Assembly: GCA_049472315.1 (NCBI GenBank)
Contig: JBLIRN010000014.1
Location: 5,820 to 69,819 of the forward strand
Length of the DNA stretch: 64,000 bases
Direction: 5' to 3'
Origin: a bacterium
GTDB lineage: Bacteria > SZUA-182 > DTGQ01 > JAFGSM01
Part shown: piece after piece, positions 16,405-59,224 of the stretch
Numbering within the stretch: position 1 is the first letter of the stretch
Layout of the letters: the number at the start of each line of letters is the position of its first letter
The notes under the pieces: model-generated
Seen by the model: only the letters and a program-made list of their open reading frames with translations
The model's database searches: none
Told to the model about the DNA's origin: nothing
Position numbers and translations under genes: made by a program

Positions 16405-17520
16405 ATGAGCAGGTACAAGATTGCAGCCATATTCATACTCGTCGTCATCATGTCCCTTTTTTCAGTCCGGGTCTTTGCGGCAATTGACCCAGGCGGCTTT
16501 TACTATGACAAGGAAGTGACCCTGTTCAACGGGGGCACCGCCAGGCTTTACTTCCCCCAGGCAACCGGCGACCACGGGGAGGGCAACCATCACCTCATGT
16601 CGAACCCGAACGATCCCGGTTCGCTGTTTGACGAATTCTTTGCCAATGCCCAATCCGGCAAGTTTTTCCTCATGTACGACGGGAACGATGTGGTGGATGA
16701 CGAGATATTGATGATCGCCCTGGGTGAGCAATTTGACAACTATTTCTTTATGGCCCTTCAATGGCAAATAAACGACGGGCCCTTGTCCCAGAATATCTCC
16801 ATCGAGAGCGCCGATTTCAACAGCAATGAATACGGCTACTATCCACAATGGTGGAAGGTGGCCCGATCGGGAAAGCCACTCATTTACAGTGGATCGGACG
16901 AAGACGCCTACTACGTCATCTACGTCCCGCTCGAATTTGACGGCCAGTCAATGGCAAAGGGGGATGTCCTGTCAATCACCTACGCACTCACCCAATTTGA
17001 TGCCCCTCAGGCCAGGATTGTCTTCAATGTTTACGGCTCAAGCGATACAGAGTATTTTTACCAGTGGACCAACGCAAACGACAACACCTTCGGAATAAAC
17101 TCCCTCTATTCCTCGTCTCAACAGAACCAGCCCTCGATTTACCCGTATCTTTTCGGCGGGATGGGCTACGGCGGATACTATGGGGGATACTGGCCGGGGA
17201 TGGGTTCGTTTGGGGGATCATACGGAGGATGGGGCTTCTCCTCTCCTACGGGTTCCTACTACGGGTATGGATACGGCATCCCATATTCCTTCTATGGCTC
17301 CTCCTTTGGCGGCGGGTATGGGTATTCACCCTATGGAGGCGGTTTCGGCGGCTTATACGGGGGGTTTGGCTATCCTTACAGCAACTTCTATTCCGGCTGG
17401 TCCTACCGGCCGTACTCGTTCGGATACGGGAGTGGTTACGGATGGTCACCCTATACCATGGGATGGGGTTCCTTGGGTGGATATTATTCGAATTACTACG
17501 GCGGGTACAGCGGTTTCTGA
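16405..17520 (+). CDS. Secreted protein with extreme Gly/Tyr/Ser-rich low-complexity C-terminal region
   Basis: Signal peptide MSRYKIAAIFILVVIMSLFSVRVFA and RBS GGAAGGAG upstream. The C-terminal roughly 130 aa is almost entirely G/Y/S/F/W/P (GYGGYYGGYWPGMGSFGGSYGGWGF...GGYSGF). The N-terminal roughly 240-aa domain has no match I recognise. Confidence 0.7.
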   Translation: MSRYKIAAIFILVVIMSLFSVRVFAAIDPGGFYYDKEVTLFNGGTARLYFPQATGDHGEGNHHLMSNPNDPGSLFDEFFANAQSGKFFLMYDGNDVVDDEILMIALGEQFDNYFFMALQWQINDGPLSQNISIESADFNSNEYGYYPQWWKVARSGKPLIYSGSDEDAYYVIYVPLEFDGQSMAKGDVLSITYALTQFDAPQARIVFNVYGSSDTEYFYQWTNANDNTFGINSLYSSSQQNQPSIYPYLFGGMGYGGYYGGYWPGMGSFGGSYGGWGFSSPTGSYYGYGYGIPYSFYGSSFGGGYGYSPYGGGFGGLYGGFGYPYSNFYSGWSYRPYSFGYGSGYGWSPYTMGWGSLGGYYSNYYGGYSGF

Positions 17521-17592: not shown

Positions 17593-18000
17593 CTATGAGG
17601 GTCGTACATTGAGCAGCCGGTTTACCTCCCCGATAAAGGCGCTCGCTTCAAACGGTTTGGTGACAAAGGCGTTTGCGCCCAGTTCCTTGAGCTGATACGA
17701 GTATTTTCTCTTGGTGTACACCGCCGTTATGATCAGGATGGGGATATTCTTCAATGCATCCATCTTCCGAATCTCGCTGCATACATCGAATCCATGCCTT
17801 CCGGGAAGCAGAAGATCCAGGACGACGAGGTCCACATTTTTTGACTTCAGGATGCTGATCGCCTCATCCCCCTTACATGCATGGAGTGTGGAATAGTTCG
17901 ACTGTTTCAGGATCTCCTCGATAAACTCCCTCACCAGGGGATCGTCGTCCACGATCAATACGGTGTACGCTCGACTGGATTGTTTGGTGTCAGATTTCAT
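17593..18000 (-). CDS. Response regulator receiver (single-domain, CheY-like)
   Basis: 135 aa. REC motifs LIVDDD, phospho-acceptor region VVLDLLLPG and conserved Lys in TKPF. Confidence 0.85.
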   Translation of the reverse strand: MKSDTKQSSRAYTVLIVDDDPLVREFIEEILKQSNYSTLHACKGDEAISILKSKNVDLVVLDLLLPGRHGFDVCSEIRKMDALKNIPILIITAVYTKRKYSYQLKELGANAFVTKPFEASAFIGEVNRLLNVRPS

Positions 18001-18091: not shown

Positions 18092-19213
18092 TCATCCGGA
18101 GGCATGAACCACGCTGCGGCCGGCCGGCTTCAGTACCTCGTAGCATTTGACCGGCTCGGTTTTATTCTTTGCAATGATCTCCCCCTTTTTCTGCAAAGGG
18201 AAGAGATCCTTTACCTGCCGGTATGTTTGTTCGCCGATCACGATTTCCCCTCCCTTTGCCATCTGCTCAAATCGCGCAGCAACGTTCACACAGTCGCCGA
18301 TGACCGTATAGTCGATCCTATTGACCGATCCCACATTTCCGGCGATGGCGATCCCGGTGTTGATGCCGATTCCGATCTCAAATGTCTCCTTTTGTTCCTT
18401 TGTGCGCTCCTTCATCAATCGCTCCGTGGCCTCCTGCATTTCTATGGCGGCCTGTATGGCATCGGCGGCCGGCGCATTCTCCGAGGGGATAAATCCAAAC
18501 AAGGCCATGAGGTTGTCCCCGATGAATTTATCCAGCACCCCGTTATTCTTGAAGATGATATCCACCATGTCGCTGAAGAACTGATTCAACATGGCCACCA
18601 CCTCCTCGGCGTCCATCCGCTCGGTAATGGTGGTAAAGGATCGTATGTCGGCAAAGAGAATGGTCACCTCTTTGCGTTCATTTTCAAAGAGCGCACCGCT
18701 TTCCGGATTCATGAGCTTTTCAACGAGATCTTCCCGCACGTACCTGCTCAAGGTAGTGCGCAGTTCCACCTCCTTTTGGTTGAGCTCAAACGCCTCGGTA
18801 AGGTCCTTGGCGTAGGTCATGAGTTGTATGCCCTGCTCCTTCAAATTCTTCAAAAGGACATTGAAATTCTGCGCGATGTCGTTCAATTCCTCGTCCGCCT
18901 TGATCTTGATCGATTCGACCTTTTCCCAGGATCGAATAATTCCTGTGGCCTTGGCAAGCTGAGCAAGCTGTTCCGCCGATCTCCTCAGGAGCACAAATCC
19001 AAGGAGGATTGAGAAGGCCGCAAGTGCCAGGAAGATGATGGTGATATCGAAGGTTTTTATATTTTTTTGGAAAAGGAGATAGATGATCAGCACAAAGGGA
19101 ATGATACCCATCAGGGCGAAGATGATCCGTGACTTGACATGAAAGCTTCTGAAATTAAGATAGCATGATCCGCACAGGTGACTCAGAATCGCTGTCAATT
19201 TGTTTTGATTCAT
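18092..19213 (-). CDS. Membrane-anchored class III adenylate/guanylate cyclase
   Basis: 2 N-terminal TM helices, a coiled/HAMP-like linker, and a CYCc domain (VTILFADIRSFTTITE, KFIGDNLMALFG, IGINTGIAIAGNVGS). Confidence 0.8.
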   Translation of the reverse strand: MNQNKLTAILSHLCGSCYLNFRSFHVKSRIIFALMGIIPFVLIIYLLFQKNIKTFDITIIFLALAAFSILLGFVLLRRSAEQLAQLAKATGIIRSWEKVESIKIKADEELNDIAQNFNVLLKNLKEQGIQLMTYAKDLTEAFELNQKEVELRTTLSRYVREDLVEKLMNPESGALFENERKEVTILFADIRSFTTITERMDAEEVVAMLNQFFSDMVDIIFKNNGVLDKFIGDNLMALFGFIPSENAPAADAIQAAIEMQEATERLMKERTKEQKETFEIGIGINTGIAIAGNVGSVNRIDYTVIGDCVNVAARFEQMAKGGEIVIGEQTYRQVKDLFPLQKKGEIIAKNKTEPVKCYEVLKPAGRSVVHASG

Positions 19214-19638
19214 GCATGCTCCTTTTGTTTCGTGTCGACACGCTCGAAATTCAGGAGACTGTCAAACTGCACCGCCACCTCCGTCTCGCCGTGGCCTGCG
19301 CCATCGGATATATCGGAATCCTTATAGATCCGCACGACCCGAGCCCGCGCCTTCATCCGGGCATGTACACTGCCGGCGCCGGGAAGATAAAAGGTCATCT
19401 CCAGTTCCTGTCCGAGGAAGTAACGATCCGTCCTCTTGGTAGCAAAGCAGGCCCCTCCTCCTGAGATGTCCTTGGAAACCGTCTTTTCATACCACTCCTT
19501 TCCCTCACTGTCCTCGGTGGCTATCTCAGTCAGGAACTCTATGTTGAACCGCTTGAACTCCCGTCGTTCTCCCGCGCTCCCCATCTTCTTCACCGCCATG
19601 TGCGTGCGTGCATCCTGTTTCACCGGTGTGTGTTCCAT
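19210..19638 (-). CDS. PilZ domain protein (c-di-GMP binding)
   Basis: RxxxR motif (RREFKRFN) and D/NxSxxGG motif (DISGGGACF). The start is placed at the ATG preceded by GAGG. The longer ORF to 19671 lacks an RBS. Overlaps the cyclase start by 4 nt. Confidence 0.65.
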   Translation of the reverse strand: MEHTPVKQDARTHMAVKKMGSAGERREFKRFNIEFLTEIATEDSEGKEWYEKTVSKDISGGGACFATKRTDRYFLGQELEMTFYLPGAGSVHARMKARARVVRIYKDSDISDGAGHGETEVAVQFDSLLNFERVDTKQKEHA

Positions 19639-19722
19639 GACGCCCGCCTCATTGACATGGGCGCCTCCCATGCCATAAGGGCCGGCGCTTTTTCCCTGCC
19701 CTCAGACTCATCGTTGACGATA

Positions 19723-20202
19723 TCATTTCGGCCTTTCGGGTTGTTGCTTGATGATCATTGTTCCCTCTTTTGTCCACTTCATCTGCGGTTGATTCTTGAA
19801 TGTGATCATGCCTTCATCGGATGTTTCCAGGTAAAAGGGGAACGTACACTCCTGCTTGTTCATGTTTTCATAGCATACGGTATACAGCACCTTCGTTCCT
19901 TCCTTTTCTTTCCCCTTTTCCACCCTTTCCATTTTCTTTTTCACACTGGTGATGAAGTTGACCTCGATATGCTTGAGCAAAAAGGCATCCAGGACCTCAA
20001 GGTTGTATCCGCTGGCAAAGATAATGAGGTCCTTTGTCAGGCCCAGGGAGCAGTCCTTGTAGGTTGCATGGCTTGTCTTCCAGACACCCTCGAGTCCGTC
20101 CTTGACAATGAGATCCCTCCCATCCCCGCACCCTGCGATAAGAAGGAGGATAATGAACAGCAATATCACTGACTCTATTCGAGAAATTATCTTTTTTTTC
20201 AT
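19723..20202 (-). CDS. Lipoprotein, unknown function (compositionally atypical, about 45% GC)
   Basis: Lipobox LLIAGC after MKKKIISRIESVILLFIIL. Lys/Glu-rich with no recognisable family. GC content is clearly below the flanking genes. Confidence 0.55.
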   Translation of the reverse strand: MKKKIISRIESVILLFIILLLIAGCGDGRDLIVKDGLEGVWKTSHATYKDCSLGLTKDLIIFASGYNLEVLDAFLLKHIEVNFITSVKKKMERVEKGKEKEGTKVLYTVCYENMNKQECTFPFYLETSDEGMITFKNQPQMKWTKEGTMIIKQQPERPK

Positions 20203-20219
20203 TGTCTGCACCTCATTTC

Positions 20220-22427
20220 TCACGGTGATTTCACGGCAAGTTCGACGCCCTTCTGCATGCCAGGTCTTCTCCGCTGCACTATCTTTGTTTTCTTATCGGT
20301 ATCTCGGCCGGTTTTTTTCTCCTCTAGTACCTTCAAGAGGGCATTCACCACCTGCGCATCGAACTGAGTGCCCGACCCCTCCTTGATGATCTGGAGGGTG
20401 CGCTCCTTTCCCATTCCCTCCCGATAGGGCCTGTCCGAGATAAGGGCATCGTATACATCCGCCACGGACAGGATACGCGCCCCAAGGCAGATGTCTTCGC
20501 CGGAAATACCGTGGGGATATCCCTTCCCGTCAAACCTTTCATGGTGCTGCAATCCCATGGGGATGATGTCTTTATAGGCAGCGATGGGTTCCAGGATGCG
20601 GGCGCCGGTCGCCGGATGCTGCTTTATGATGGCGAATTCCTCGTCCGTGAGCCTTCCCGGCTTGTCGAGGATCTCAGCAGGGACCCCGATCTTGCCGATG
20701 TCATGGAGCAACCCTCCCCGATGGAGGTCCTCAAGTTCCTTTTCACTGAGGCCCATGACCTTCCCCAGCTTCAATGCCATTTCCGTGACCCGCTCCGAGT
20801 GGCCGGCGGTCCAGGGGGACTTTGCATCAACCGTGCGGGCAAGGGCCTTCAAAGCGCCCCAGTTCAGATTATCCAGCTCCTCGATGAGGTGGGCGTTGGA
20901 CAGGGCGACCGCCACCTGGTCAGCAAGCTGCCTGACCTGGAGGAGATCCTCATCACTGGGCTCATGGACCTCGAAGGTGCCGAGTGCGATAGTCCCTGCC
21001 ATCCTTTGACTGATAAACAGAGGGAGCAGTATCGCCGATTCGACCCCTCTGTTTTTAAAGGATTCGAGCAAACCGGGTAACTCCTCCTTTGTTTTCAGCG
21101 TGAGCGTCTCTCGATGCTCCGCAAGCATCTCCAGGTCGTCCCGCTGTATCTCCACATCCTCGCAAGCGCGATTCGAGGCCCCGTGGCCGGTGTACACACG
21201 GGCCATGCAGCAGCCCTTGGATTGAAGGTCGAACAAGAGGACACTCACCAGATCATAGTTGCATACCTTGTGCATGGTGGAGATGACCGTGCCGATGATC
21301 TCTTCCGTGTCCAGGGAGGACAGGATGGCGCGGTCGATATCGGCCATGGTGGTCAGGGCGTTGAACTGCCTGCCGAGTTGCCGTGCCATGAAGTTGAAGG
21401 ATGATCCGAGTTCCTCGAATTCATCCTTGCTCGTTACCGTGACCCTGGTCTCGAAATCCTTCATGGCAATGCGTCTGGTCCCCTCCTTGAGCTTCTCGAG
21501 CGGGGTCATGGTCTTGCGTATCTGTATCACGCTCAGCAGCACGACCACCAGGAGGGAAAGCAGGATAAAGAGGGGAAATATCTTCTTGAAATAGGCAAGC
21601 GGGGCGAAGACGTCATCCTTGGCGGTGCTGGTGATGATCGTCCACTTCGGCTCAAAGAATTCATATTTCAGAAAGATCGGCCAAAAACACCCCAGAAACT
21701 CCCTTCCTTTGTAATCCCATTCGAACTGCTCCGAAAAGTACCGGCTCGCCTTTGCAGCCAGTGTCTTGCGAAACGAGGGGGACACCGGATGGGAGGAAAA
21801 GATCACGTTCTCAGACTCGTCCATGACACACAGCTCGGTGAGCCCGGGCAGCGAATCGGACTCTAAAAGGCCCCAGAGGTACATGGAGTCGACTTCCGCA
21901 TGGATGAGCCCCTTTGCAGGATCCTCGGGGTCAACAGGACTGATCATGAACACGCACAATTTGTCCTTGTTCCCATTCTCATACTCGGTTACTATAAGCG
22001 CCTTACCGGAGCGCAGATGTTCACGCTGTGCATCGGACAGCCGGATTGGTGCATGTTGATCACCGAACACCGGGATCAGTGCGCCGGCATGGGTCTGCAG
22101 CGCCAGCGTGATGAACCGCCCCTTCAACCCCTCGATTCCTGCATGTGATGGAAGCGGGGTGGATGATCCGCGTATCTCATTCATGCCCGAGGAGAGGACG
22201 TTCAACTGGGTTTCAAGAAACAGGAGACGTTCCATTACGGACATGCCGATGGATTTACTCGATCTGCGCAGCCTCAACCGGCTTTGCGACTCAAGCTGCT
22301 TCGATACCTGGGTGAATGAGATGACGGAGATCGCTACGAGCGGGATCAGTGCGCAGAGTATAAACAATGCGAATATCCGGCGTGCAACCTTGCTCTTCAG
22401 GAATGTCTCGTCGATTCGTATCCCCAT
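20220..22427 (-). CDS. HD-GYP domain c-di-GMP phosphodiesterase with N-terminal membrane/periplasmic sensor, HAMP and GAF-like regions
   Basis: HD motif (GLLHDIGKIGVP), GYP motif (HHERFDGKGYPHG). An N-terminal TM helix, periplasmic region and a second TM are present. Confidence 0.85.
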   Translation of the reverse strand: MGIRIDETFLKSKVARRIFALFILCALIPLVAISVISFTQVSKQLESQSRLRLRRSSKSIGMSVMERLLFLETQLNVLSSGMNEIRGSSTPLPSHAGIEGLKGRFITLALQTHAGALIPVFGDQHAPIRLSDAQREHLRSGKALIVTEYENGNKDKLCVFMISPVDPEDPAKGLIHAEVDSMYLWGLLESDSLPGLTELCVMDESENVIFSSHPVSPSFRKTLAAKASRYFSEQFEWDYKGREFLGCFWPIFLKYEFFEPKWTIITSTAKDDVFAPLAYFKKIFPLFILLSLLVVVLLSVIQIRKTMTPLEKLKEGTRRIAMKDFETRVTVTSKDEFEELGSSFNFMARQLGRQFNALTTMADIDRAILSSLDTEEIIGTVISTMHKVCNYDLVSVLLFDLQSKGCCMARVYTGHGASNRACEDVEIQRDDLEMLAEHRETLTLKTKEELPGLLESFKNRGVESAILLPLFISQRMAGTIALGTFEVHEPSDEDLLQVRQLADQVAVALSNAHLIEELDNLNWGALKALARTVDAKSPWTAGHSERVTEMALKLGKVMGLSEKELEDLHRGGLLHDIGKIGVPAEILDKPGRLTDEEFAIIKQHPATGARILEPIAAYKDIIPMGLQHHERFDGKGYPHGISGEDICLGARILSVADVYDALISDRPYREGMGKERTLQIIKEGSGTQFDAQVVNALLKVLEEKKTGRDTDKKTKIVQRRRPGMQKGVELAVKSP

Positions 22428-22436
22428 TAATCCCTC

Positions 22437-23033
22437 TTAGAATTCGGATGCAAGCCCCACGAATGCCCCATTGCTTGCCCGAATGACGTCGTCGTAACTC
22501 ACTTTTGCATCAATGCCCGGCTCGCTCAACCCATCCTTCCCCATGCTGAAGAGGTCGTAGTCGGTATTGAGCGGCTTGAGAAAACGGCACTGTCGCATCT
22601 TGCCCTCGACCCCTTTATGGGCGCTGTCATAGGGGTTATACTGATAAAGGTTTCCCCAGGGATCTCTCTGGCTCCCGAAGTGGATGTCATCGAGCGTCTG
22701 CGGCAGGTCGTCGTTGTTCAATTCGAAGGTGGGGTTGTCGGTGTCCACCTGGTATGACCAGATATCCCTCTCCATGACCCGGATCTCGGTGATTGCCCGC
22801 GCCACCCGTGTCTTGTAGAGGTAGTTGGTATATGAGGGAACGGCAATGGCGCCCAGGGTGGCGACGATCGTGACGGTGATGAGTATCTCAACCATGGTGA
22901 ATCCATGCGGAGATCCCTTTCCAAGGAATTCCGTTAGGGTGAATCTCCTTCGACATATATGCCGTGTCCGAGCGGCAGTGACCCCTTTTAAAAGATCACC
23001 CCTGCTATGAAGCCGGTTGTTTCGATCCACCAT
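22437..23033 (-). CDS. Type IV pilin-like/pseudopilin protein with unusually long (44-aa) basic leader
   Basis: Prepilin cleavage/methylation motif G|FTMVEILITVTIVATLGAIAVPSY. The only in-frame start with an RBS (AAGGAGG, 5 nt upstream) is the ATG at 23033, which gives a 44-residue leader (MVDRNNRLHSRGDLLKGVTAARTRHICRRRFTLTEFLGKGSPHG). Confidence 0.65.
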   Translation of the reverse strand: MVDRNNRLHSRGDLLKGVTAARTRHICRRRFTLTEFLGKGSPHGFTMVEILITVTIVATLGAIAVPSYTNYLYKTRVARAITEIRVMERDIWSYQVDTDNPTFELNNDDLPQTLDDIHFGSQRDPWGNLYQYNPYDSAHKGVEGKMRQCRFLKPLNTDYDLFSMGKDGLSEPGIDAKVSYDDVIRASNGAFVGLASEF

Positions 23034-23623
23034 TGTCCCTCCTTGTATCGCTCCGACGAAAAGGCACCGGAGCGGAGAACTCATTGCCCTGCGCTCGATG
23101 GATATATCTTTATATTTATCGGATAAATCACCCGGTTGTATCGGCATCCTCTTCACAAACAACCGATTTTGGGGTAATTGTGAGATGATCGGCATGCAGT
23201 GAAGTTATTTTCATAGAAACTGGTTCTGTGGTAATTTTTTCACACTCCCGCGAAAAGTATGAACACCCGACATGGCAATCCCTGACCCTTGTGGACGCAA
23301 TCTATTCTTTGTAAATCAGCATATTATGTCGTTTCCGCCATGGGATGCACAAACACGGAATGCTTCTTGCATATAATCCATCCGATCCGTATCACTGGGT
23401 TTAACCGATAAAGAGATAACGTGCGACGGATTCCTGATAAAGGACATGCCGCACTATCAGAGATTCTTACCGAAGGTTCGAGCGTGCATTCCTTAGGATT
23501 GGCATTGCGCCGGCCAAGGAGGTTGCAGCATCGGCCGGCCTATCACGAGCCTGTTTGGGTGAGGTTGGGAAGAACGTCCCTGGAGAGCTTTACAACCGGC
23601 GATCTTAGTGACGGAGGAACCAT

Positions 23624-24927: not shown

Positions 24928-25638
24928 TTAGTATCCCAGGATCTGAGCTGCAGTCAGCAGTGATGAAAAGGCCGGCGTTGGATTGATCAAGGAGGCCAGC
25001 CACGGATTCAACCCAGTGAGATTCGGAGGCAGCGTGAGATTGTAGGCAGCAAGGGCCAGCGTCGGATATTGTGCCACATAGGCCAGATTGGCTGTCGGCA
25101 GGTTCGACTGGATCCACAGGGGATCGGTTGCCGGGAGCAGATTGAAACCCGTAGGCAGGCCCAGCGGTAATGCACCGCCTATTGTAGGATTCAACGCATA
25201 TGACGGCGGCCAGGCGTTTATTCCGTAAATGATATCGTAATATTGCATCCCTACCGGTGAATTATACAGGAAGTAGGGATAGCTGATCGCCGGGTTCCAC
25301 GCCAGTCCTGGCTGTACAGGAAGCGTTGTCGATGGAAAGAGGTTGCTCACGATGGGTGTCGGCAGCCCGGTGGTCGCACTGACCGGAGACAGGGCGGGTG
25401 ACCAGAGGGGCCACAAGAAATTGTAGGGCGGCATTGCGGTCCATGTCTGTGCAGTTGCCAGCCTGTTTCCCAAAAGCCCAAAGACAACCATGACAACACA
25501 GATGAAAACAACGGTTCTGATAGTGCTTTTTAATGACATACCATATACTCCTTTTGTTTTATCGTATACCCCAACCAACAGAAACAACTCGTCCACTGTT
25601 CCTTTCGTGTTCTTGTGTTCATCTCCTTTAGGCAACAC
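24928..25638 (-). CDS. Secreted Pro/Leu/Tyr-rich low-complexity protein
   Basis: Signal peptide (VVFICVVMVVFGLLGNRLATA). The remainder is rich in P/L/Y/N/A (PPYNFLWPLWSPALSPV...YPYFLYNSP...) and ends ILGY. Confidence 0.6.
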   Translation of the reverse strand: MLPKGDEHKNTKGTVDELFLLVGVYDKTKGVYGMSLKSTIRTVVFICVVMVVFGLLGNRLATAQTWTAMPPYNFLWPLWSPALSPVSATTGLPTPIVSNLFPSTTLPVQPGLAWNPAISYPYFLYNSPVGMQYYDIIYGINAWPPSYALNPTIGGALPLGLPTGFNLLPATDPLWIQSNLPTANLAYVAQYPTLALAAYNLTLPPNLTGLNPWLASLINPTPAFSSLLTAAQILGY

Positions 25639-25732: not shown

Positions 25733-26203
25733 CTACTGGAGCAATACCCAGCTCAGGTAGAAGTCCGGTGTTCCATAGGTATACGAAGGATAACTAAACC
25801 GCGTGTAAGGAAGCGGGGTGCCGGGCAGCGTGGTAAAGGGATATGTGGTCGTATAGGGTGAACCCATATAAGGATATGTCTCCTTACCAAAAAAGTTGTA
25901 TAAATAGTTCTGATATGGGTTTAAAAAGGGATTAGCATAGTAATATCCAAGCAGGTTCCCCGGAATGGGGGGAAAAAATCCGTATCCGAGGTTATAAAAG
26001 GGATCGGTAATCGAGTTGAAATACCCATAATTGCTGAAGGCCAATGGACTTGTGTAATAATAGGTAACGGGCGGAAGGTATGTCGGATCGTAGTTTCCCG
26101 GATACACCTGCGCGGGTGCCTGAACGGCCAGCAGGCACAGGACAATCAAAACAAGACCCGTCAACCAGACCCTCTCGCAGCCCCCTTTTTTCATAATCAT
26201 CAT
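25733..26203 (-). CDS. Secreted Tyr/Pro-rich low-complexity protein
   Basis: Signal peptide (LTGLVLIVLCLLAVQAPAQ). The mature part is about 20% Tyr (YPGNYDPTYLPPVTYYYTSP...GYYYANPFLNPYQNYLYNFF...). Confidence 0.6.
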   Translation of the reverse strand: MMIMKKGGCERVWLTGLVLIVLCLLAVQAPAQVYPGNYDPTYLPPVTYYYTSPLAFSNYGYFNSITDPFYNLGYGFFPPIPGNLLGYYYANPFLNPYQNYLYNFFGKETYPYMGSPYTTTYPFTTLPGTPLPYTRFSYPSYTYGTPDFYLSWVLLQ

Positions 26204-41741: not shown

Positions 41742-41894
41742 TATATTGAGTAGTGTTCACGGCATCCGGCGCGCATGACGTTGTCTGTTGTGCGCCCCCA
41801 TCAATCGATTCCGCACCTTTTTGACCGATGCGCAGGTGAACCCATCTTCGTTTATACCCCTTGAGCATTGCTGGTCTGTTCGGAAAGGAAGAAT

Positions 41895-42473
41895 ATGCGC
41901 CCTGCGTTTATTGCACGTGGGACGGTCGAGTCACGCGTGCGGCCCACGGGATTCACCCTTGTCGAGATGGGCATCGTACTGGCCACCATCAGCATCATGT
42001 CCGCCATTGCATTCCCGAATATCAGTTCCATGATGGCCAATTACCGCTTGAAGGCCGCGGCCAGGGATGTGATGTCACACCTTCAGCGGGCAAAGATGGT
42101 GGCGGTGAAAAACAATTCCCTCTGTACCCTCACCTTCAACCAGCACGTGGAAGGTGTCCCTTACGATTACGTGGTGTATGAGGATGATGACCGGGATTAC
42201 GAGTATGACGCGGGCGAAAGGATCCTCGCGTCGGTGAAGTTTTCGGATTATAAGAGCGGTGTCGGACTCGATCACTCAAAGGGAGGGGGTGACGGGGTGA
42301 CCTTTGCCGAAAACGATGCAGGCCGGCCTTCCATAGCATTCAATTCGCGGGGGCTCCCGGTGAGCCCTGGGGGTGTTGCGGGCATGGGCATGGGCTCCGT
42401 GTACCTCGTCAATAACCGCGAGACAAAGAAATGGATCAGTGTGCACAAGGCGGGAAGGATACGAATTCAATAA
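41895..42473 (+). CDS. fimT: Type IV pilus minor pilin, FimT/GspH family (set 1)
   Basis: RBS AAGGAAG. Prepilin motif G|FTLVEMGIVLATISIM and GspH-like region ANYRLKAAARDVMSHLQRAKMVAVKNN. Confidence 0.8.
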   Translation: MRPAFIARGTVESRVRPTGFTLVEMGIVLATISIMSAIAFPNISSMMANYRLKAAARDVMSHLQRAKMVAVKNNSLCTLTFNQHVEGVPYDYVVYEDDDRDYEYDAGERILASVKFSDYKSGVGLDHSKGGGDGVTFAENDAGRPSIAFNSRGLPVSPGGVAGMGMGSVYLVNNRETKKWISVHKAGRIRIQ

Positions 42474-43315
42474 TGTGTCAGGTAAAACGGTCAGCGAAGG
42501 GCATTGCCCCCGGGAAGGACGCCAACCGGCTTGCAGGCGGATTCACCCTGGTGGAGCTCCTCCTTGCCCTGTTCATAAGCGCGGTCATGGCGGCAGCCAT
42601 CTTCAACTTCTTCATCGCCCAGAACAAGTCGTACTCCGTGCAGGACCAGGTTGCGGAGATGCAACAGAATATGCGCGCAGCCATCAACCTCATGGTAAAG
42701 GAGATCAGGATGGCCGGCTACGATCCAACAGGCGAGGCAGGGGCGGGAATAGTCGCAGCCGAATCCCGCAGCATCACCTTTACCCTGGACCTGGATGGAG
42801 ACAAGGGGCTCACGGATTATAACGAGTACATAACCTATGGACTCTATACCCCGGCTGACCGCATACAAAAGCTGGGCAGAAAGGCTACCCAGAATGAGAA
42901 CTTCGCGCCGGTTGCCGAACACGTGGAGTCCCTTGGATTCGCCTATGCCTTTGACAGCAACGGGGATGGCATCCTGGACAGGGATGGCCCCCATGTGATC
43001 TGGGCGATCGACAAGGACGGCACCTGGTACGACCTGGATACCGACGACGACGGTGACATCGACGATGACGACTCCATCCCCGCCGGTGAGGATACCGGGA
43101 TTGCTGTGGACCTGGATGACATCAGGGCGGTGCGTATATGGCTCCTCGTCGAATCGAGCAAACCTGATGAGGCGTATGCCAATCGCAAGACCTATGTGGT
43201 GGGAAGCAGGGTGATTCGCCCGGCAGGTGACGCCGATACCGGAAACGACTTCCGGCGCATGCGGATCGTAGAGACCGTGGTCCGCTTGAGAAACATGGCG
43301 ATCAGGGAGGGATGA
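42473..43315 (+). CDS. pilW: Type IV pilus minor pilin PilW-like (set 1)
   Basis: Prepilin motif GG|FTLVELLLALFISAVMAAAIFNFF. Size and the SYSVQDQVAEMQQNMR region are typical of PilW. Start codon overlaps the fimT stop. Confidence 0.75.
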   Translation: MCQVKRSAKGIAPGKDANRLAGGFTLVELLLALFISAVMAAAIFNFFIAQNKSYSVQDQVAEMQQNMRAAINLMVKEIRMAGYDPTGEAGAGIVAAESRSITFTLDLDGDKGLTDYNEYITYGLYTPADRIQKLGRKATQNENFAPVAEHVESLGFAYAFDSNGDGILDRDGPHVIWAIDKDGTWYDLDTDDDGDIDDDDSIPAGEDTGIAVDLDDIRAVRIWLLVESSKPDEAYANRKTYVVGSRVIRPAGDADTGNDFRRMRIVETVVRLRNMAIREG

Positions 43316-43770
43316 CCATGTCGTCGGATATACGTGAATCGAGACTCCAGCAGGGATTCAGCCTGCTCGAGGTGCTCATTTCCATTGGCATCTTTGCCAT
43401 CGGAATCCTCGGGGCGAGCGTCCTGCTCATCAATACCATCAAGGGCAATGCCGTGTCCATACGCCTGAGCACTGCAACACAGCTTGCCTCCAAACAGATG
43501 GAGGAGATCATGCTCATAGACTATGCCTCCCTCATGGACCATGACGGCGACGGCCTCGCAGGGCTTGATGATACAGACGCCTCCACCGCTGACGGCATAC
43601 GCCTGAACCTAAAGGGAGGGGGGGTGGGCGAGCGCTACAACCTTTACTGGAATGTGGCGGAGAACGCGCCGGTAGCCGGGACCAAGACTGTTCGGGTCAT
43701 TGTGGCCTGGCATGGCGGCACTCGGGACAAACGCGTTGCATTCGACATGGTGAGAACCAGGGGGGAATGA
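43312..43770 (+). CDS. pilV: Type IV pilus minor pilin PilV-like (set 1)
   Basis: QQG|FSLLEVLISIGIFAIGILG is the PilV-type N-terminus. About 150 aa. Confidence 0.8.
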   Translation: MTMSSDIRESRLQQGFSLLEVLISIGIFAIGILGASVLLINTIKGNAVSIRLSTATQLASKQMEEIMLIDYASLMDHDGDGLAGLDDTDASTADGIRLNLKGGGVGERYNLYWNVAENAPVAGTKTVRVIVAWHGGTRDKRVAFDMVRTRGE

Positions 43771-43771
43771 T

Positions 43772-44266
43772 ATGAAGGCACTATTCGATATACTCCACCG
43801 CGAGGAGGGCACTGCATTTCTCATCGCGATGCTGGTCCTTATGCTCCTTACCCTCATGGGCACCTTTGCCATCATGACCACCGATATCGAAATCCAGATT
43901 GCAGGGAACGAAAAGGAGTACATGAGGGACTTCTATGTAACCGACAGCGGCTGGAAGGAGGCCGCCCCCTGGCTCAACAACCGGGCCACCCCACCCCGGC
44001 CGGTGAACACCTCCCTGGAGGATAACGTGGTCAAGAATTTCGGCGGAGGAGGAGACGGGGTCACCAACGAGGACTTCCCTCCCGGCACCCAGGACGGGAC
44101 CCTTGCCGGGATCCCCTACTGGAACAGGATCGAATACCTCTCCAACAGCGTGATGCCCGGAAGCGGCAAGGAATACCTGAGGTTCAACTACCGGGTGACG
44201 AGCAATGCCGGGGGCAATCAGGAAATCGACGTAACCCTCTATAAGATTTACAAGGTGGGGTATTAA
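43772..44266 (+). CDS. pilX: PilX-like minor pilin (PilX_N domain) (set 1)
   Basis: EEGTAFLIAMLVLMLLTLMGTFAIMTTDIEIQIAGNEKEYMRDFYVTDSG matches the PilX N-terminal domain pattern. Confidence 0.75.
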   Translation: MKALFDILHREEGTAFLIAMLVLMLLTLMGTFAIMTTDIEIQIAGNEKEYMRDFYVTDSGWKEAAPWLNNRATPPRPVNTSLEDNVVKNFGGGGDGVTNEDFPPGTQDGTLAGIPYWNRIEYLSNSVMPGSGKEYLRFNYRVTSNAGGNQEIDVTLYKIYKVGY

Positions 44267-44281
44267 TCCCGTGATGAGAGA

Positions 44282-47200
44282 ATGAACATAATGGGCGATC
44301 AAAAACTCCCTCGGGCGACGTGCGGCAGCCATGTTCGCAAGAAAGCATTTGTATGTGCCATTGCCGCGGCATTCCTCCTGTGTGTCCTGAGCCCCCGTGC
44401 GTGGTCTGAATCCCTTGATATCAGGGTGAGTTCATCACAGGATGACGCCGAGGAGCGCGTGAGCAACGGTGTCGTGGATTGCGGCAGTACGGATCTTGAA
44501 ATGATTCAAGAAAGTTCAGCCCAGATCGTGGGTATCCGTTTCAGGGACGTGACCGTGCCCAATGGCGCTGCCATCACCAACGCCTACATTGAATTCGAGA
44601 CGGACGAGACGAACAGCGGGTCTACTACACTATACTTCAAGGGGGAGGCTTCCGATAACGCTGCTGCCTTCTCCGAATCGGGCCATCACAACATCTCCGG
44701 CCGAGCCCGCACAACCGCCGTCGTATCCTGGGCGGGCGTACCTGCCTGGAATCAGAATAATAAAAAGCACCAGACCCCGGACCTCAGCCCCGTCATCCAG
44801 GAGATCGTCGACCGGGATGGGTGGACCGCCGGAAATTCCCTTGCGATCATCATCACCGGCTCGGGCAAGAGGGTTGCCGAGTCCTATGACAAAGGTAACC
44901 ATACGTCAGGCCCCCTCCTCCACCTTGAATACGAATCGGATGCCCTGGATATCAGGGTGGCGCAGAACAGCGATGATGCGGAGGAAAAAACGGACGGGAG
45001 CATGAGGCTTTACAGCGACGATCTGGATCTCATCCGCAAGCAGACCGACCAGACCGTGGGCATCCGCTTCCAGGGCATCAATGTGCCCCGTGGCGCATGG
45101 ATCACCACCGCCTATATCCGGTTCGAGGCGGCGGGGACAAACTCGGAGGCAACAAATCTGACCATCGCCGGGGAATCCACCGACGATGCAGGGACCTTTT
45201 CGAACACGAGCGGCGATATCACCCGCAGGTCCACCACCGCTGCCTCGGTCTCCTGGAATAACGTACCCGCATGGAGCAGCGTGGGTGAGCGTCACTCCAC
45301 CCCCGATCTCAGCGTCATCGTCCAGGAGATTGTGGGAAGGCCGGGATGGGAGCCGGGAAATGACATGGTATTCATTATCAGCGGATCAGGGAAAAGGGTG
45401 GCGGCATCCCTGGACGATGATCCGGGGAAGGCGCCCATGCTCCACATCGAATACTCCGACGCTACGTTCCCCTTCATCATGACGGATATAAGCAGCCTGG
45501 GTGCTGTCTGCTATAAGGAAAACGACGCAGCACCAGACGGTTTCACGATCACCAACAGCGGCTCCGCTGCCATGCACTTCACCCTCTCGGATGATGCCGA
45601 GTGGGTCTCCGTATCTCCGGCGAGCGGGATGCTGGACCCGGGGGATTCCGCCGAGATTGCGGTGAGCTTCAATACATCGTCCCTGGATGTCGGAACGTAC
45701 GAAACAAGCATCATGATCATGGACCCCAATGCACCCAACAGCCCTCTTGAAATCGACGTGAGCGTCACCATTCAGCCGATCCCCGAGTCCGCGGCCTGCG
45801 GCCATGTGCCGGTGTATACGGAAAACCTGGTGAGCCCTGCCATATTGATCCTCCTCGATCTCTCCGGGAGCATGGGAACGAAGATGGCCATATCCGATCC
45901 CGCCGAGAATCCCCGCACCCCCGACCTTTCGCAGATCGTCCAGGAGATTGTGGACAGATCCGGATGGAACTCGGGGAATGCGATGGCGTTCATCATCACG
46001 GGGAGCGGGTGCAGGATCGCCGAATCCTATGACGGCGAATCGGGCGCCGCCCCCCTCCTGCACGTAGAGTATATCCATTCCGGTACCCACGTCCTGGATG
46101 TCAGGGTCTCCCACAGTCATGACGATGCAGAAGAGGCATCAAACGGGAATGTTTCGCGCTCCAGCAGCGATCTCGAGCTGGTGCGTGACGGCTCCGATCA
46201 GATCGTGGGCATCCGTTTCCAGAACGTCACCATACCGCCGGGGGCCGACATTGCCAATGCATACATCGAGTTTGTCGTGGACGAGGCAAAGAGCCAAGCC
46301 ACCTCCCTGACTATCCGGGGGGAGGCAATGGACGATCCCCCCAAGTTTTCCAACTCAAAGAGAAACATCTCGAACCGGACCACTACTGATGCATATGCGG
46401 CCTGGCTCAACATCCCCGCCTGGAGCCTCCCCACCCAGCAGACCAGGATCGCGATCGCACGCTCCGTGATCAGCGAGCTCGTCGGGGACAAAAGCATTGC
46501 GTGGGGATTCGGCACATGGCGCTCAAACGAGAATGCCGGGTATACCGCAGGTATCGACTACACCAAGATCCACGTGGGGTGCGGGCCCAATGACCCGAAC
46601 CAGCAGTTGCTGCTTCAGGAGAGCATCAGCACGAAGACGGAGATCGGAGGGTCCACCCCCTTTGGCCCCTCCATCCTGGCAGCACAAAAATATTATTCCG
46701 GTCAAAAAAAGGACCGGGAGGGCGACGGTGAGTACTACGTAGACATCCCGTGCCAGCCGAGATTCCTCGTCGAGATCACCGACGGTCTGGGTAACGTGGA
46801 TTCGAACAATGAGACGGTGAGGCTGCGCACCAACGACCTGTGCGATGAAGGGGTGACCCCCATCGCCGTAGGATTCGGCATCGACGACGCCACCCAGATA
46901 CAGATCATGGCGAGTATCAGCAACGAGCGCGGGCATGCATCTGATGACCTCTATGCCCTGCACGACGAGGTGAACGGAGTCGGACAGCCCTTCCTGGCAT
47001 ACAGCGAGGAGGCCCTCAAGGAGGCATTGGCCGCCATCACCGAGCGGATCAAGGGACAGATATTCCATGGCGCAGCCCCGGTGCCCACCACCTCCTCGGA
47101 TTACGGGGACATCGTTATCATGGCTCAATTCGATGCCACCGACTGGTCCGGCGACCTGGTGGCGACCACCTTGGATCAGACCACCGGCGCATGGGATCGG

Positions 47201-49077: not shown

Positions 49078-49578
49078 ATGATGAAGACACGCTGGATTGG
49101 GGGCATGACCCTCATCGAGGTAGCGGTCGTGGTGTCGATTATCGTCGTTGCCACTACCCTCGCAGTTCCTTCCATAGTGGGCATAATGCCCCGATTCCTT
49201 CTCAATTCACAGGTCTCCGCCCTGCACAACGACTTCCAGAGGGCACGCTTCAAGTCCATCAGCCTCAACACCCAGTACCGGATCAGCCTCGCAATAGACA
49301 TTTCGCCAAACCCGGATACCTATAAAGGGGAGTACTACGACCTCGCCACCGCCAAGTGGGTGGCGGATACGGAGATGAAATCCAGGCAGATCCGCGAGGG
49401 GGTGGATATCGCCTATATAGGAAGCGCGGGTAAAACCAAGGACATCTTCCTCATCCGGTTCAATCCCGACGGCACCGCCGATGACGAAGAGATATTCCTG
49501 ACAAACTCAAAGGGGCTCCAGCGGCGGATCGAGATAATCGACACCACCGGCATTATAAGGGTCCATAACTCATGGTAG
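49078..49578 (+). CDS. fimT: Type IV pilus minor pilin, FimT/GspH family (set 2)
   Basis: GG|MTLIEVAVVVSIIVVATTLAVP prepilin-like N-terminus and GspH-like region VSALHNDFQRARFKSISLN. Confidence 0.75.
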   Translation: MMKTRWIGGMTLIEVAVVVSIIVVATTLAVPSIVGIMPRFLLNSQVSALHNDFQRARFKSISLNTQYRISLAIDISPNPDTYKGEYYDLATAKWVADTEMKSRQIREGVDIAYIGSAGKTKDIFLIRFNPDGTADDEEIFLTNSKGLQRRIEIIDTTGIIRVHNSW

Positions 49579-49588
49579 GTGAACGCAC

Positions 49589-50029: not shown

Positions 50030-50032
50030 GCC

Positions 50033-50992: not shown

Positions 50993-51001
50993 GGTGCCAC
51001 C

Positions 51002-51577: not shown

Positions 51578-51657
51578 GGGACGGCTCACGTCATACAGCG
51601 TGACATGTACGGGAAGAAAAACAATTTAACTGGAACATCCATAATAGGAGGTGCACC

Positions 51658-59181: not shown

Positions 59182-59224
59182 ATGCCGAAGAACACGATGG
59201 AGAAAAACCGAGGAGGTATCATAC

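What the first reader, a model, noticed from the sequence alone, without database searches (positions are those of the whole stretch)
22437..23033. Orphan pseudopilin with a 44-residue basic leader peptide
The gene has a textbook prepilin-peptidase site (G|FTMVEIL). The only start codon with a Shine-Dalgarno (AAGGAGG) gives a 44-aa, Arg-rich leader. This is far longer than the 5-7 aa of type IVa pilins or about 15-30 aa of type IVb and Tad pilins. No ATG, GTG or TTG occurs between that start and the cleavage site. The gene sits apart from the main pil cluster, beside c-di-GMP signalling genes. Either it is an unusual long-leader pilin, in which the leader could have a regulatory or secretion role, or an upstream frameshift has fused two reading frames.
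Basis: seen in the sequence. Interest (0 to 1): 0.5.

Follow-up and report, generated by a model that had tools for sequence, protein, structure and literature searches.

The report
Long-leader pseudopilin wired to a sensor
This is a real pilin-like gene with an unusually long 43-44-residue leader peptide, and it is the first gene of a widespread, apparently undescribed three-gene module that pairs a solitary pilin-like protein with a membrane sensor and a small lipoprotein, here controlling the second messenger c-di-GMP.

Summary
Window 22437-23033 (-) encodes a 198-aa prepilin: AAGGAGG, ATG 23033 (GTG 23030 is codon 2), a 44-aa leader, then G|FTMVEIL. No closer in-frame ATG, GTG or TTG exists.

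Four other orthologue lineages (61-85% identity) keep the Shine-Dalgarno, the start and a 43-44-aa leader with no indels. A frameshift or sequencing error is therefore excluded.

Leader residues 2-16 (MxDRNNRxxxRGDxxKG) are under purifying selection. Residues 17-43 evolve almost neutrally. The Arg-richness is specific to this lineage.

The gene is not an orphan. In 74 of 80 species genomes from many phyla, a homologous GspG-like pseudopilin lies directly upstream of a sensor. That sensor has a homologous, Pfam-invisible dCache-like periplasmic domain plus HAMP. Its output varies: HD-GYP, GGDEF-EAL, hybrid kinase or cyclase. A conserved small lipoprotein usually accompanies the pair.

Leaders are long across the family: the lower-bound median is 14 aa, and 21 of 69 loci reach at least 20 aa.

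Best reading (inferred): the membrane-anchored pseudopilin is a dedicated co-sensor of the HD-GYP enzyme, like PilA-PleC and PilA-PilS. Cleavage and the leader's function are untested.

The parts
23102..23148 (-). Nearly invariant non-coding block upstream of the gene (GATGCCGATACAACCGGGTGATTTATCCGATAAATATAAAGATATAT). It contains the 7-1-7 palindrome ATTTATC-C-GATAAAT at 23114-23128. Probably a promoter or operator.
   Evidence: the block is invariant, with no third-position wobble, across orthologues whose proteins are only 61-85% identical. The DNA flanking it carries 1-nt indels. The consensus sigma-70 scan found nothing here.
23038..23044 (-). Shine-Dalgarno AAGGAGG.
   Evidence: The GGAGG core is invariant in all five orthologous loci.
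23028..23033 (-). Start codons: ATG 23031-23033 (4-nt spacer, 44-aa leader) and GTG 23028-23030 (7-nt spacer, 43-aa leader; aligned with the ATG of L002, L004 and L005).
22902..23033 (-). Leader peptide coding region: 44 codons ending in Gly-1.
   Evidence: AlphaFold2 gives pLDDT of about 50 for residues 1-44, i.e. no confident fold. No Rfam match even at E<=1. No covariation support for an RNA structure.
22983..23027 (-). Conserved N-terminal leader motif D3-G17 (DRNNRxxxRGDxxKG).
   Evidence: D3, R4, N5, N6, R7, R11, G12, D13 and G17 are invariant. NG86 omega is 0.13-0.34 in five of the six divergent pairs with finite dS. Differences by codon position are 26/27/54. The motif is unique in the window.
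22830..22901 (-). Class III signal-peptide hydrophobic segment, alpha1N (FTMVEILITVTIVATLGAIAVPSY), with Glu+5.
   Evidence: N_methyl 21.3 bits. TIGR02532 23.7 bits against a cutoff of 16.3. E49 is invariant in the 51-sequence family alignment and present in the 13 further loci read, except truncated L058.
22437..22901 (-). Mature GspG-like pseudopilin (154 aa) plus stop codon.
   Evidence: AlphaFold2 model: pLDDT is 74-98 by 10-residue block (125 residues at 90 or more), with helix 47-97 and a small beta-sheet. Best PDB folds are EpsG 4lw9 and 3gn9. The family profile hits GspG 5wda at E 2e-13.
20220..22427 (-). Partner gene, 9 nt downstream of the pseudopilin stop: TM1 - dCache-like periplasmic domain - TM2 (21522-22427), HAMP (21375-21521), GAF (20901-21311), HD-GYP (20349-20846).
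   Evidence: for the domains. The N-terminal 305 aa have no Pfam hit. Their model matches dCache ligand-binding domains at E 1e-7 to 1e-8. The pairing is conserved in 74 of 80 genomes.
19723..20223 (-). Third conserved module member: a small protein of about 160 aa with a lipobox (LLIAGC).
   Evidence: for the sequence. Homologues occur in 50 of 84 loci, always adjacent and on the same strand. No Pfam or PDB relative.
19210..19671 (-). PilZ-domain protein. Part of the operon only in the close orthologues.
18092..19213 (-). Membrane-bound class III adenylate/guanylate cyclase. Part of the operon only in the close orthologues.
17593..18000 (-). Single-domain response regulator at the end of the operon.
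   Evidence: One search gives the ORF. The equivalent 135-aa Response_reg gene is present in L001 and L002.

Best explanation
The gene encodes a real prepilin-type protein whose translated leader is 43-44 residues long. It is the dedicated first gene of a conserved sensory module.

Shown:
- The start codon, the Shine-Dalgarno and the leader length are conserved in orthologues.
- The first 16 leader residues are constrained at the amino-acid level. The remaining 27 behave as a nearly neutral stretch that stays in frame.
- The mature part is a diverged GspG-like pseudopilin with invariant Glu+5.
- Its homologues in many phyla lie directly upstream of a transmembrane sensor with a homologous dCache-like domain, HAMP and interchangeable outputs. 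A conserved small lipoprotein usually accompanies them. No pilus or type II secretion machinery is nearby.

Inferred:
- The preprotein inserts into the inner membrane with the leader in the cytoplasm.
- The cell's prepilin peptidase, which is not in the window, cuts after Gly44.
- The mature 154-aa pseudopilin stays in the membrane and contacts TM1 and/or the periplasmic dCache domain of the HAMP-GAF-HD-GYP phosphodiesterase, with the lipoprotein. This sets c-di-GMP hydrolysis. The operon's PilZ protein, cyclase and response regulator act downstream.
- The type IV pilus machinery encoded at 41.8-61.3 kb may extract the pseudopilin from the membrane. That would tie pilus activity to c-di-GMP, as PilA does through PleC or PilS.
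- The long leader probably makes the unprocessed form a distinct state, or offers a cytoplasmic docking motif. This last step is the least supported.
For: Start and leader:
- Sequence and ORFs.
- Orthologues P0001, P0003, P0004 and P0005 cover 99-100% of the query including the leader.
- The DNA alignment shows an invariant GGAGG and an aligned start codon.
- All five genes are 594 nt with no indels. Only frame 0 is open through the leader. Omega for codons 2-16 is 0.13-0.34 in five of the six divergent pairs with finite dS, against 0.27-1.28 for codons 17-43.
- No Rfam hit and no covariation support for an RNA fold.

Fold and family:
-. E49 is invariant, and G44, F45 and T46 are present in at least 90% of sequences.

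Module:
- The operon is identical in L001 and L002.
- Distant homologues are followed by HAMP-GAF-HD-GYP or HAMP-GGDEF-EAL genes whose N-terminal regions are homologous.
- At least 586 species genomes encode relatives.
- 75 of the 80 loci kept have the sensor domain adjacent, 74 of them downstream on the same strand.
- Outputs also include hybrid histidine kinases and a class III cyclase.
- The sensor domain folds like dCache.
- Lipoprotein homologues occur in 50 of 84 loci.
- The pseudopilin is the only prepilin-like gene within about 5 kb in nearly all loci.
- Mature pseudopilins are more conserved than the sensor domain: mean identity 51% against 31%, with pairwise identities correlated at r=0.60.

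Precedent:
- Membrane-inserted PilA is sensed by TM1 of PleC. PleC's periplasmic domain was modelled on the dCache receptor Mlp37, and the signal drives c-di-GMP synthesis (PMC7196804).
- PilA-PilS intramembrane sensing is cited in PMC6058289.
Against: - No experiment or complex model was possible. Physical contact between pseudopilin, sensor and lipoprotein is inferred from synteny alone.
- No prepilin peptidase gene is in the window, so cleavage of a 44-aa leader is assumed.
- Leader residues 17-43 are nearly unconstrained, and leaders differ completely between clades. The length could be tolerated drift rather than function.
- Only four independent orthologue lineages support the leader statistics, and the segments are short.
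- The sensor-domain model is of modest quality (mean pLDDT 65, from a 5-sequence alignment).
- P0005 and P0003 have internal Met codons at -13 and -19, which could give shorter isoforms in those lineages.
- The r=0.60 correlation is also expected from simple co-inheritance.
Confidence: 0.6

Rival explanations
1. The long leader is an artefact. A frameshift, sequencing error or pseudogenisation has fused an upstream frame to a normal short-leader pilin gene.
For: None beyond the unusual length. One database entry (P0002, 152 aa) starts at the Met inside FTMVEIL, which shows that gene callers disagree.
Against: Five independently assembled sequences from four lineages share the Shine-Dalgarno, the start codon and a 43-44-codon leader without indels. 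The amino acids at the leader's N-terminus are conserved. The Met in FTM is Val in P0005.
Confidence: 0.02
2. Translation of the pilin really starts at an unrecognised near-cognate codon close to the cleavage site. The conserved upstream region would then be a 5' leader RNA or a separate small ORF with a regulatory role, for example a c-di-GMP-responsive element.
For: - The gene sits among c-di-GMP genes.
- An internal Shine-Dalgarno-like AAGGAGA lies at 22944-22950.
- P0005 and P0003 have Met at -13, which would give a family-typical 13-aa leader.
- Leader codons 17-43 show no clear coding signature: differences by codon position are 71/113/114.
Against: - No Rfam family matches even at E<=1.
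- RNAalifold gives a positive (penalising) covariation term.
- The window has no in-frame ATG, GTG or TTG after codon 2. The codon after the internal AAGGAGA is ACC/CTA.
- The -13 Met is absent from the window, P0001 and P0004.
- The frame stays open and the length is constant in all orthologues.
- Codons 2-16 show amino-acid-level constraint with synonymous changes.
Confidence: 0.05
3. The protein is an ordinary filament subunit (a minor pilin or pseudopilus subunit) assembled by the type IV pilus system encoded elsewhere in the window. The adjacent c-di-GMP genes would only regulate, or be co-regulated with, that filament, and the pilin would not be the sensor's input.
For: - G-1, F+1 and E+5 are kept throughout the family, and E+5 is classically linked to assembly.
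- The window carries two minor-pilin/PilY1 clusters and pilMNOPQ.
- c-di-GMP control of pili is common.
Against: - The pairing follows the sensor's input domain rather than c-di-GMP. The same pseudopilin also sits upstream of hybrid histidine kinases and a cyclase that carry the homologous dCache-like domain.
- Almost no locus has other pilins or assembly genes within 5 kb.
- The gap between the pseudopilin stop and the partner's start is 9 nt in the window and in L001, L002 and L008, including the distant L008.
Confidence: 0.2
4. The leader is never removed. The protein would be a bitopic membrane protein with a permanent 44-residue cytoplasmic tail, and the prepilin motif would serve only as a membrane anchor.
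For: - The leader is longer than any well-documented peptidase substrate (own knowledge: type IVb leaders reach about 30 aa).
- It has a conserved N-terminal motif that could be a cytoplasmic interaction site.
Against: Gly or Ala at -1 and Glu at +5 are kept across at least 80 species. That is hard to explain without processing. The leader sequence is not conserved between clades.
Confidence: 0.1

Closest known systems
GspG/PulG/EpsG, the major pseudopilin of type II secretion (TIGR01710, PF08334; PDB 4lw9, 3gn9, 5wda)
   Same: - Prepilin motif G|FT(L/M)xE with Glu+5.
- A long alpha1 helix and a small beta-sheet head.
- DPWG and (Y/F)DLxSxGxDG motifs.
- Best structural and profile matches.
   Different: - Scores far below the family cutoffs: 37.8 against 88.85 bits, and 18.2 against 21 bits.
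- Foldseek E is only 0.05, with a TM-score of about 0.54 normalised to the target.
- No gsp operon is present.
- It is a solitary gene fused in an operon to a sensor.
- The leader is 43-44 aa, against about 6-8 aa (own knowledge).
Long-leader pilins: type IVb pilins (TcpA about 25 aa, CofA/LngA about 30 aa; own knowledge) and Streptococcus sanguinis PilE1/PilE2, described as having 'very long leader peptides' (PMC10191384)
   Same: A hydrophilic leader much longer than the textbook 5-7 aa, ending in Gly.
   Different: - The leader here is roughly 1.5 to 2 times longer.
- Phe at +1 and a small GspG-like head, not a type IVb fold.
- No dedicated assembly cluster.
- Long leaders recur across the whole sensor-linked family.
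Pilin-to-sensor signalling: Caulobacter PilA-PleC-PleD (PMC7196804), Pseudomonas PilA-PilS (Kilmury and Burrows 2016, cited in PMC6058289), and minor pilins/PilY1-FimS (PMC5979040)
   Same: - A membrane-inserted pilin acts as the input of a two-TM sensor.
- PleC has the same layout (TM1, a dCache-like periplasmic domain of about 230 aa, TM2) and controls c-di-GMP.
   Different: - In those systems the pilin is the structural subunit of a working pilus and is encoded apart from the sensor.
- Here a solitary pseudopilin is genetically hard-wired to the sensor, with a third lipoprotein component and several alternative outputs.
- No interaction has been shown here.
- Homology of the sensor domain to PleC was not tested.
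Sensors with dedicated periplasmic or lipoprotein accessories: YfiBNR and LuxP-LuxQ (own knowledge)
   Same: A transmembrane signalling enzyme whose periplasmic domain is controlled by co-encoded accessory proteins, in YfiBNR including a lipoprotein and a c-di-GMP output.
   Different: The accessories are unrelated in sequence and fold, and none is a prepilin-type protein.

Membership tests
Prepilin-type (class III signal peptide) proteins | Gly or Ala at -1 followed by about 20 hydrophobic residues (N_methyl / TIGR02532) | tested here: met
   PF07963 21.3 bits against a cutoff of 21.2. TIGR02532 23.7 bits against a cutoff of 16.3. Sequence G|FTMVEILITVTIVATLGAIAVPSY.
Prepilin-type (class III signal peptide) proteins | Glu at position +5 | tested here: met
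   E49 is invariant in the 51-sequence alignment. It is present in every family locus read except truncated L058.
Prepilin-type (class III signal peptide) proteins | Short hydrophilic leader (about 5-30 aa) on the cytoplasmic side | tested here: not met
   The leader is hydrophilic but 43-44 aa long, which is outside the documented range. Length is described as variable in PMC10191384, so this is an outlier rather than an exclusion.
Prepilin-type (class III signal peptide) proteins | Cleavage and N-methylation by a prepilin peptidase | not testable with these tools
   No peptidase gene is in the window. Proteomics or co-expression is needed.
Prepilin-type (class III signal peptide) proteins | Lollipop fold: a long N-terminal helix packed on a beta-sheet | tested here: met
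   AlphaFold2 model with helix 47-97, 4 strands, and pLDDT of 74-98 by block in the mature part.
GspG, type II secretion major pseudopilin | Family HMM score above the curated cutoff | tested here: not met
   TIGR01710 37.8 bits against 88.85. PF08334 18.2 bits against 21.
GspG, type II secretion major pseudopilin | GspG fold | tested here: inconclusive
   The top Foldseek hits are EpsG 4lw9 and 3gn9 at probability 0.87-0.96, but E is 0.05 and the TM-score 0.54. The family profile hits 5wda at E 2e-13.
GspG, type II secretion major pseudopilin | Encoded in a gsp operon with the secretin, ATPase, platform and minor pseudopilins GspH-K | tested here: not met
   The neighbours are signalling genes. 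It is the only prepilin-like gene within about 5 kb in nearly all of 89 loci.
Type IVb / Tad pilins | Long leader, a variable +1 residue, and a dedicated clustered assembly machinery | tested here: not met
   The +1 residue is Phe, the head is small and GspG-like, and no tcp/bfp/tad-like genes are nearby.
dCache-HAMP signal transducers (for the partner protein) | Two TM helices flanking a double-PDC periplasmic domain, followed by HAMP | tested here: inconclusive
   HAMP scores 46.6 bits. No Cache Pfam hit even at E<=10. The model (pLDDT 65) matches dCache domains of Tlp3, Mlp24 and PctA at E 1e-7 to 1e-8 with probability 1.0.
Pilin-sensed sensors (PilA-PleC / PilA-PilS type) | Direct interaction of the pilin's N-terminal helix with the sensor's transmembrane region, changing the output | not testable with these tools
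   Only conserved synteny and matching topology are available. A multimer model or a two-hybrid assay is needed.

The most novel reading that the evidence does not exclude
A widespread and so far undescribed tripartite input module, present in at least 586 species genomes across Desulfobacterota, Nitrospirota, Acidobacteriota, Gemmatimonadota, Methylomirabilota, Burkholderiales and others. In it, a solitary type-IV-pilin-like protein, a cryptic dCache receptor domain and a small lipoprotein together form the sensor. The module plugs into HD-GYP, GGDEF-EAL, histidine-kinase or cyclase outputs. Prepilin processing of an unusually long leader, with its conserved cytoplasmic DRNNRxxxRGDxxKG motif in this clade, would act as a gate or second input. 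This would couple the state of the cell's pilin-processing or pilus machinery to second-messenger signalling.
Probability: 0.3. Interest if true: 0.8.

Novelty: new variant of a known kind. Interest (0 to 1): 0.62.

Why it matters
Pilins are known mainly as filament subunits. A few studies show that membrane pools of structural pilins feed into sensors such as PleC, PilS and FimS.

This locus points to a whole family in which a pilin-like protein has become a dedicated, genetically hard-wired part of a receptor. It occurs in hundreds of mostly uncultured species and drives several kinds of output.

If confirmed, three things would follow:
- A new accessory type would be added to bacterial signal transduction.
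- A function would be assigned to many 'general secretion pathway protein G' annotations that lie far from any secretion system.
- A Pfam-invisible dCache family and an unannotated lipoprotein family would be defined.

The 43-44-aa leader would be the longest conserved prepilin leader that I know of. It offers a natural test of how leader length affects prepilin peptidase processing.

Practically, gene callers disagree on this gene, giving versions of 152, 197-198, 232 and 252 aa. The conserved start identified here fixes the annotation.

Tried and rejected
- **More orthologues.** Two scans of metagenome contigs found nothing usable: a protein alignment of the clade and the invariant upstream block as a DNA pattern. 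The leader statistics therefore rest on five sequences.
- **Homologues of the sensor domain.** The word-indexed protein search returned only 3 hits and then 1 hit. This forced a shallow 5-sequence alignment for the structure model.
- **c-di-GMP or other riboswitch in the 5' region or leader.** None was found at the gathering threshold or at E<=1. RNAalifold gave no covariation support.
- **Consensus sigma-70 promoter or intrinsic terminator around the gene.** None was found.
- **Tat signal (CRRRF).** Rejected, because the twin arginines are absent from P0004, P0005 and P0003.
- **BldD-like c-di-GMP motif RGD-X8-RxxD.** The first half and the spacing fit, but the second half is RTRH or ETRR, so the motif is not met (reading).
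- **An 82-98-aa leader from upstream in-frame ATGs.** Rejected: there is no Shine-Dalgarno, the conserved block shows no wobble pattern, and 1-nt indels follow it.
- **Start at the Met of FTMVEIL (as in P0002).** Rejected, because that residue is Val in P0005.
- **The leader motif as a repeated module.** It occurs only once in the window, in L001 and in L002.
- **Pfam, NCBIfam and PDB searches for the lipoprotein.** No relatives were found.
- **Literature.** Searches for a pseudopilin paired with HD-GYP, c-di-GMP or Cache domains found nothing relevant.
Full report
**1. The observation**

The minus-strand ORF ending at 22437 carries AAGGAGG at 23038-23044 and ATG at 23031-23033. GTG follows as codon 2. 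After 44 codons comes a textbook prepilin site, G|FTMVEILITVTIVATLGAIAVPSY.

Scanning every in-frame ATG, GTG and TTG back to the previous stop gives leaders of 98, 87, 85, 82, 61, 44 and 43 aa. Only the last two have a Shine-Dalgarno, and nothing lies closer to the cleavage site.

The leader has 8 Arg and 2 Lys, net charge +7 and pI 11.8. Pfam N_methyl sits just at its cutoff and T2SSG just below its own.

Six other prepilin-like genes in the same window have leaders of about 6 to 23 aa. This one is the clear outlier, in an organism whose leaders already run long.

**2. Real leader or artefact?**

The protein search returned an 85%-identical 198-aa protein from an NCBI MAG (P0001). It also returned three metagenomic orthologues (P0004 67%, P0005 61%, P0003 70%), and all cover the leader. 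I fetched their DNA.

- The GGAGG core and a start codon align in all of them. Three have ATG where the window has GTG.
- From that start, all five genes are exactly 594 nt, with no indel.
- Only frame 0 is open through the leader in all five.
- Leader codons 2-16 show more changes at third positions (26/27/54 by codon position). NG86 omega is 0.13-0.34 in five of the six divergent pairs with finite dS.
- D3, R4, N5, N6, R7, R11, G12, D13 and G17 are invariant, although synonymous codons differ.
- Codons 17-43 are almost unconstrained (omega 0.27-1.28; 71/113/114), yet they keep both frame and length.
- The Arg-richness belongs to the window/P0001 lineage. The other orthologue leaders have net charges of +3, +3 and 0.

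These results exclude a frameshift, a sequencing error or a pseudogene.

Other readings of the region also fail:
- No RNA element explains it. Rfam gives nothing even at E<=1, and the RNAalifold covariation term is unfavourable.
- The Met inside FTM, used by one gene call (P0002, 152 aa), is Val in P0005.
- Internal Met codons at -13 and -19 exist only in P0005 and P0003.

**3. What the protein is**

With a 51-sequence alignment, AlphaFold2 gives a confident mature domain. pLDDT is 74-98 by 10-residue block, with helix 47-97 and a small sheet. The leader has pLDDT of about 50.

The best solved folds are the type II secretion pseudopilins EpsG/GspG: probability 0.96, E 0.05, TM-score 0.54. The family profile hits GspG 5wda at E 2e-13.

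The protein scores only 37.8 bits against the GspG equivalog model, whose cutoff is 88.85. No secretion genes are nearby. It is GspG-like but not GspG.

**4. It is not an orphan**

The stop codon is 9 nt from the ATG of a 735-aa HAMP-GAF-HD-GYP protein. That gene is followed by a 166-aa lipoprotein, a PilZ protein, a class III cyclase and a single-domain response regulator. L001 and L002 have the same operon.

The link extends far beyond the close orthologues:
- Homologues with 12-aa or other leaders are followed by HAMP-GAF-HD-GYP (L008, also with a 9-nt gap; L006) or HAMP-GGDEF-EAL (L009). Their N-terminal 300 residues are homologous to the window's partner.
They span Desulfobacterota, Nitrospirota, Acidobacteriota, Gemmatimonadota, Methylomirabilota, Rokubacteria, Burkholderiales, Acidiferrobacterales and Verrucomicrobia. 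They include Geobacter argillaceus ATCC BAA-1139.
- In 75 of the 80 loci kept, an adjacent ORF carries the homologous sensor region (E 1e-4 to 1e-92). In 74 it lies downstream on the same strand.
- The outputs are GAF-HD-GYP (about 40 loci), GGDEF-EAL, hybrid histidine kinase or class III cyclase.
- The sensor region has no Pfam match. A modest model (pLDDT 65) matches dCache ligand-binding domains of Tlp3, Mlp24 and PctA at E 1e-7 to 1e-8.
- The window's lipoprotein is a third conserved member. Homologues occur in 50 of 84 loci, always adjacent and co-oriented: after the sensor, between pilin and sensor, or before the pilin. It has no Pfam or PDB relative.
- The pseudopilin is the only prepilin-like gene within about 5 kb in nearly all loci.
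- Mature pseudopilins are more conserved (mean 51% identity) than the sensor domain (31%). Their pairwise identities correlate at r=0.60.
- Glu+5 and Gly/Ala-1 are kept throughout.

**5. Leaders across the family**

I took the nearest in-frame canonical start as a lower bound. Across 69 loci the median leader is 14 aa. It is at least 20 aa in 21 loci and at least 30 aa in 12.

The sister clade (L010, L038, P0010, P0015) has a conserved 30-aa Lys/Arg-rich leader preceded by Shine-Dalgarno-like matches. Leaders are unrelated between clades.

Long leaders are therefore a family tendency. The window's clade has the longest one that is confirmed by conservation.

**6. Mechanism**

Shown: the points in sections 1 to 5.

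From established knowledge (PMC10191384): prepilins insert through SRP and Sec with the leader in the cytoplasm. The peptidase cuts at the cytoplasmic face.

Inferred: the mature pseudopilin stays in the inner membrane and acts as a dedicated co-sensor of the dCache-HAMP enzyme, together with the lipoprotein.

The closest precedent is Caulobacter. There the membrane pool of PilA binds TM1 of PleC, whose periplasmic domain was modelled on the dCache receptor Mlp37, and raises c-di-GMP (PMC7196804). PilA-PilS (cited in PMC6058289) and minor pilins/PilY1-FimS (PMC5979040) are related cases.

Two further ideas are speculative:
- A Glu5 contact with the nearly invariant Arg17 at the cytoplasmic end of the sensor's TM1 is geometrically plausible but untested.
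- The leader's conserved N-terminal motif suggests a cytoplasmic interaction or a control on processing. The neutral remainder suggests a tolerated tether.

**7. Rivals**

- Artefact or frameshift: refuted.
- Mis-assigned start or an RNA element: unlikely.
- Ordinary filament subunit that is merely co-regulated: weakened, because the pairing follows the input domain across four output types.
- Uncleaved bitopic protein: weakened by the conserved Gly-1 and Glu+5.

**8. Novelty**

Literature searches found no description of a pseudopilin paired with HD-GYP, c-di-GMP or Cache sensors. Pfam and NCBIfam have no model for the sensor domain or the lipoprotein, and only generic models for the pilin.

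The parts are of known kinds. The hard-wired three-gene arrangement and the 43-44-aa conserved leader are new variants.

**9. Limits**

- There are no experiments, and no multimer prediction was possible.
- No peptidase gene is in the window.
- Only four independent orthologue lineages are available.
- The sensor model rests on a shallow alignment.
- The organism is unidentified. Its nearest relatives are uncultured Desulfobacterales.

Noticed in passing
window 23102-23148 (palindrome 23114-23128), minus-strand sense: A 47-nt block upstream of the pseudopilin is invariant across orthologues whose coding sequences differ by 15-40%. It contains the palindrome ATTTATC-C-GATAAAT next to TATAAAGATATAT. 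It is probably an operator overlapping the promoter, although the consensus sigma-70 scan found no promoter.
   Followed up: partly
window 23034-23623: The intergenic region between the pseudopilin and the divergent REC-HisKA-HATPase gene is about 590 nt. The window, L001 and L005 stay alignable at least 225 nt upstream of the start codon. Nothing is annotated there and Rfam finds nothing.
   Followed up: partly
window 22944-22950: An internal Shine-Dalgarno-like AAGGAGA lies inside the leader coding region (codons R28-R30). It is followed by no start codon. It is weaker in L001 (AAGGAAA) and absent from the other orthologues.
   Followed up: yes
L004 (P0003): This orthologue looks mosaic. Its leader resembles P0005 (83% nucleotide identity), but its globular domain resembles the window and P0001 (84-87%). 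This suggests recombination within the gene.
   Followed up: no
L003 922-2561: In a second contig carrying P0005, the downstream sensor gene is called as two pieces (158 aa and 391 aa). P0124 diverges from the sensor alignment after about 155 residues. This is either a frameshift or an assembly error.
   Followed up: no
L058 around 5001: The pseudopilin homologue appears truncated, with stop codons just before the hydrophobic segment. The downstream sensor and lipoprotein look intact.
   Followed up: no
window 41868-48850 and 49078-54915: There are two separate minor-pilin/PilY1 clusters upstream of pilMNOPQ (56187-61288). One has a 1522-aa PilY1 with BACON/Ig domains, the other a 1085-aa PilY1 with a VWA domain. 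Several of these prepilins have leaders of 13-23 aa, longer than the textbook 5-7 aa.
   Followed up: partly
window 16405-17520 (+), 24928-25638 (-), 25733-26203 (-): Three secreted low-complexity proteins with no Pfam match flank the operon. One has a Gly/Tyr/Ser-rich C-terminus (GGYGYSPYGGGFGG...). Two are Tyr/Pro/Asn/Leu-rich. Genes of similar size with no Pfam hit sit at the corresponding positions in L001, and for the Gly/Tyr-rich one also in L002.
   Followed up: no
L010, L038, P0010, P0015: The sister clade of the pseudopilin (uncultured Desulfobacteraceae) has its own conserved 30-aa Lys/Arg-rich leader, MLYxxxKxRKALRxCLxKSRRILxKKLLGG, with a Shine-Dalgarno-like match upstream in the two loci with DNA (L010, L038).
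   Followed up: partly
window 22437-23195: Annotation is inconsistent. The same gene family appears in databases as versions of 152 aa (start at the Met of FTM), 197-198 aa, 232 aa and potentially 252 aa, because the frame stays open upstream of the true start.
   Followed up: yes
L063, L077, L078 (Gemmatimonadota): These are the only loci with two additional prepilin-like genes (about 145-155 aa and 270-304 aa). They are divergently oriented, immediately upstream of the sensor-linked pseudopilin.
   Followed up: no
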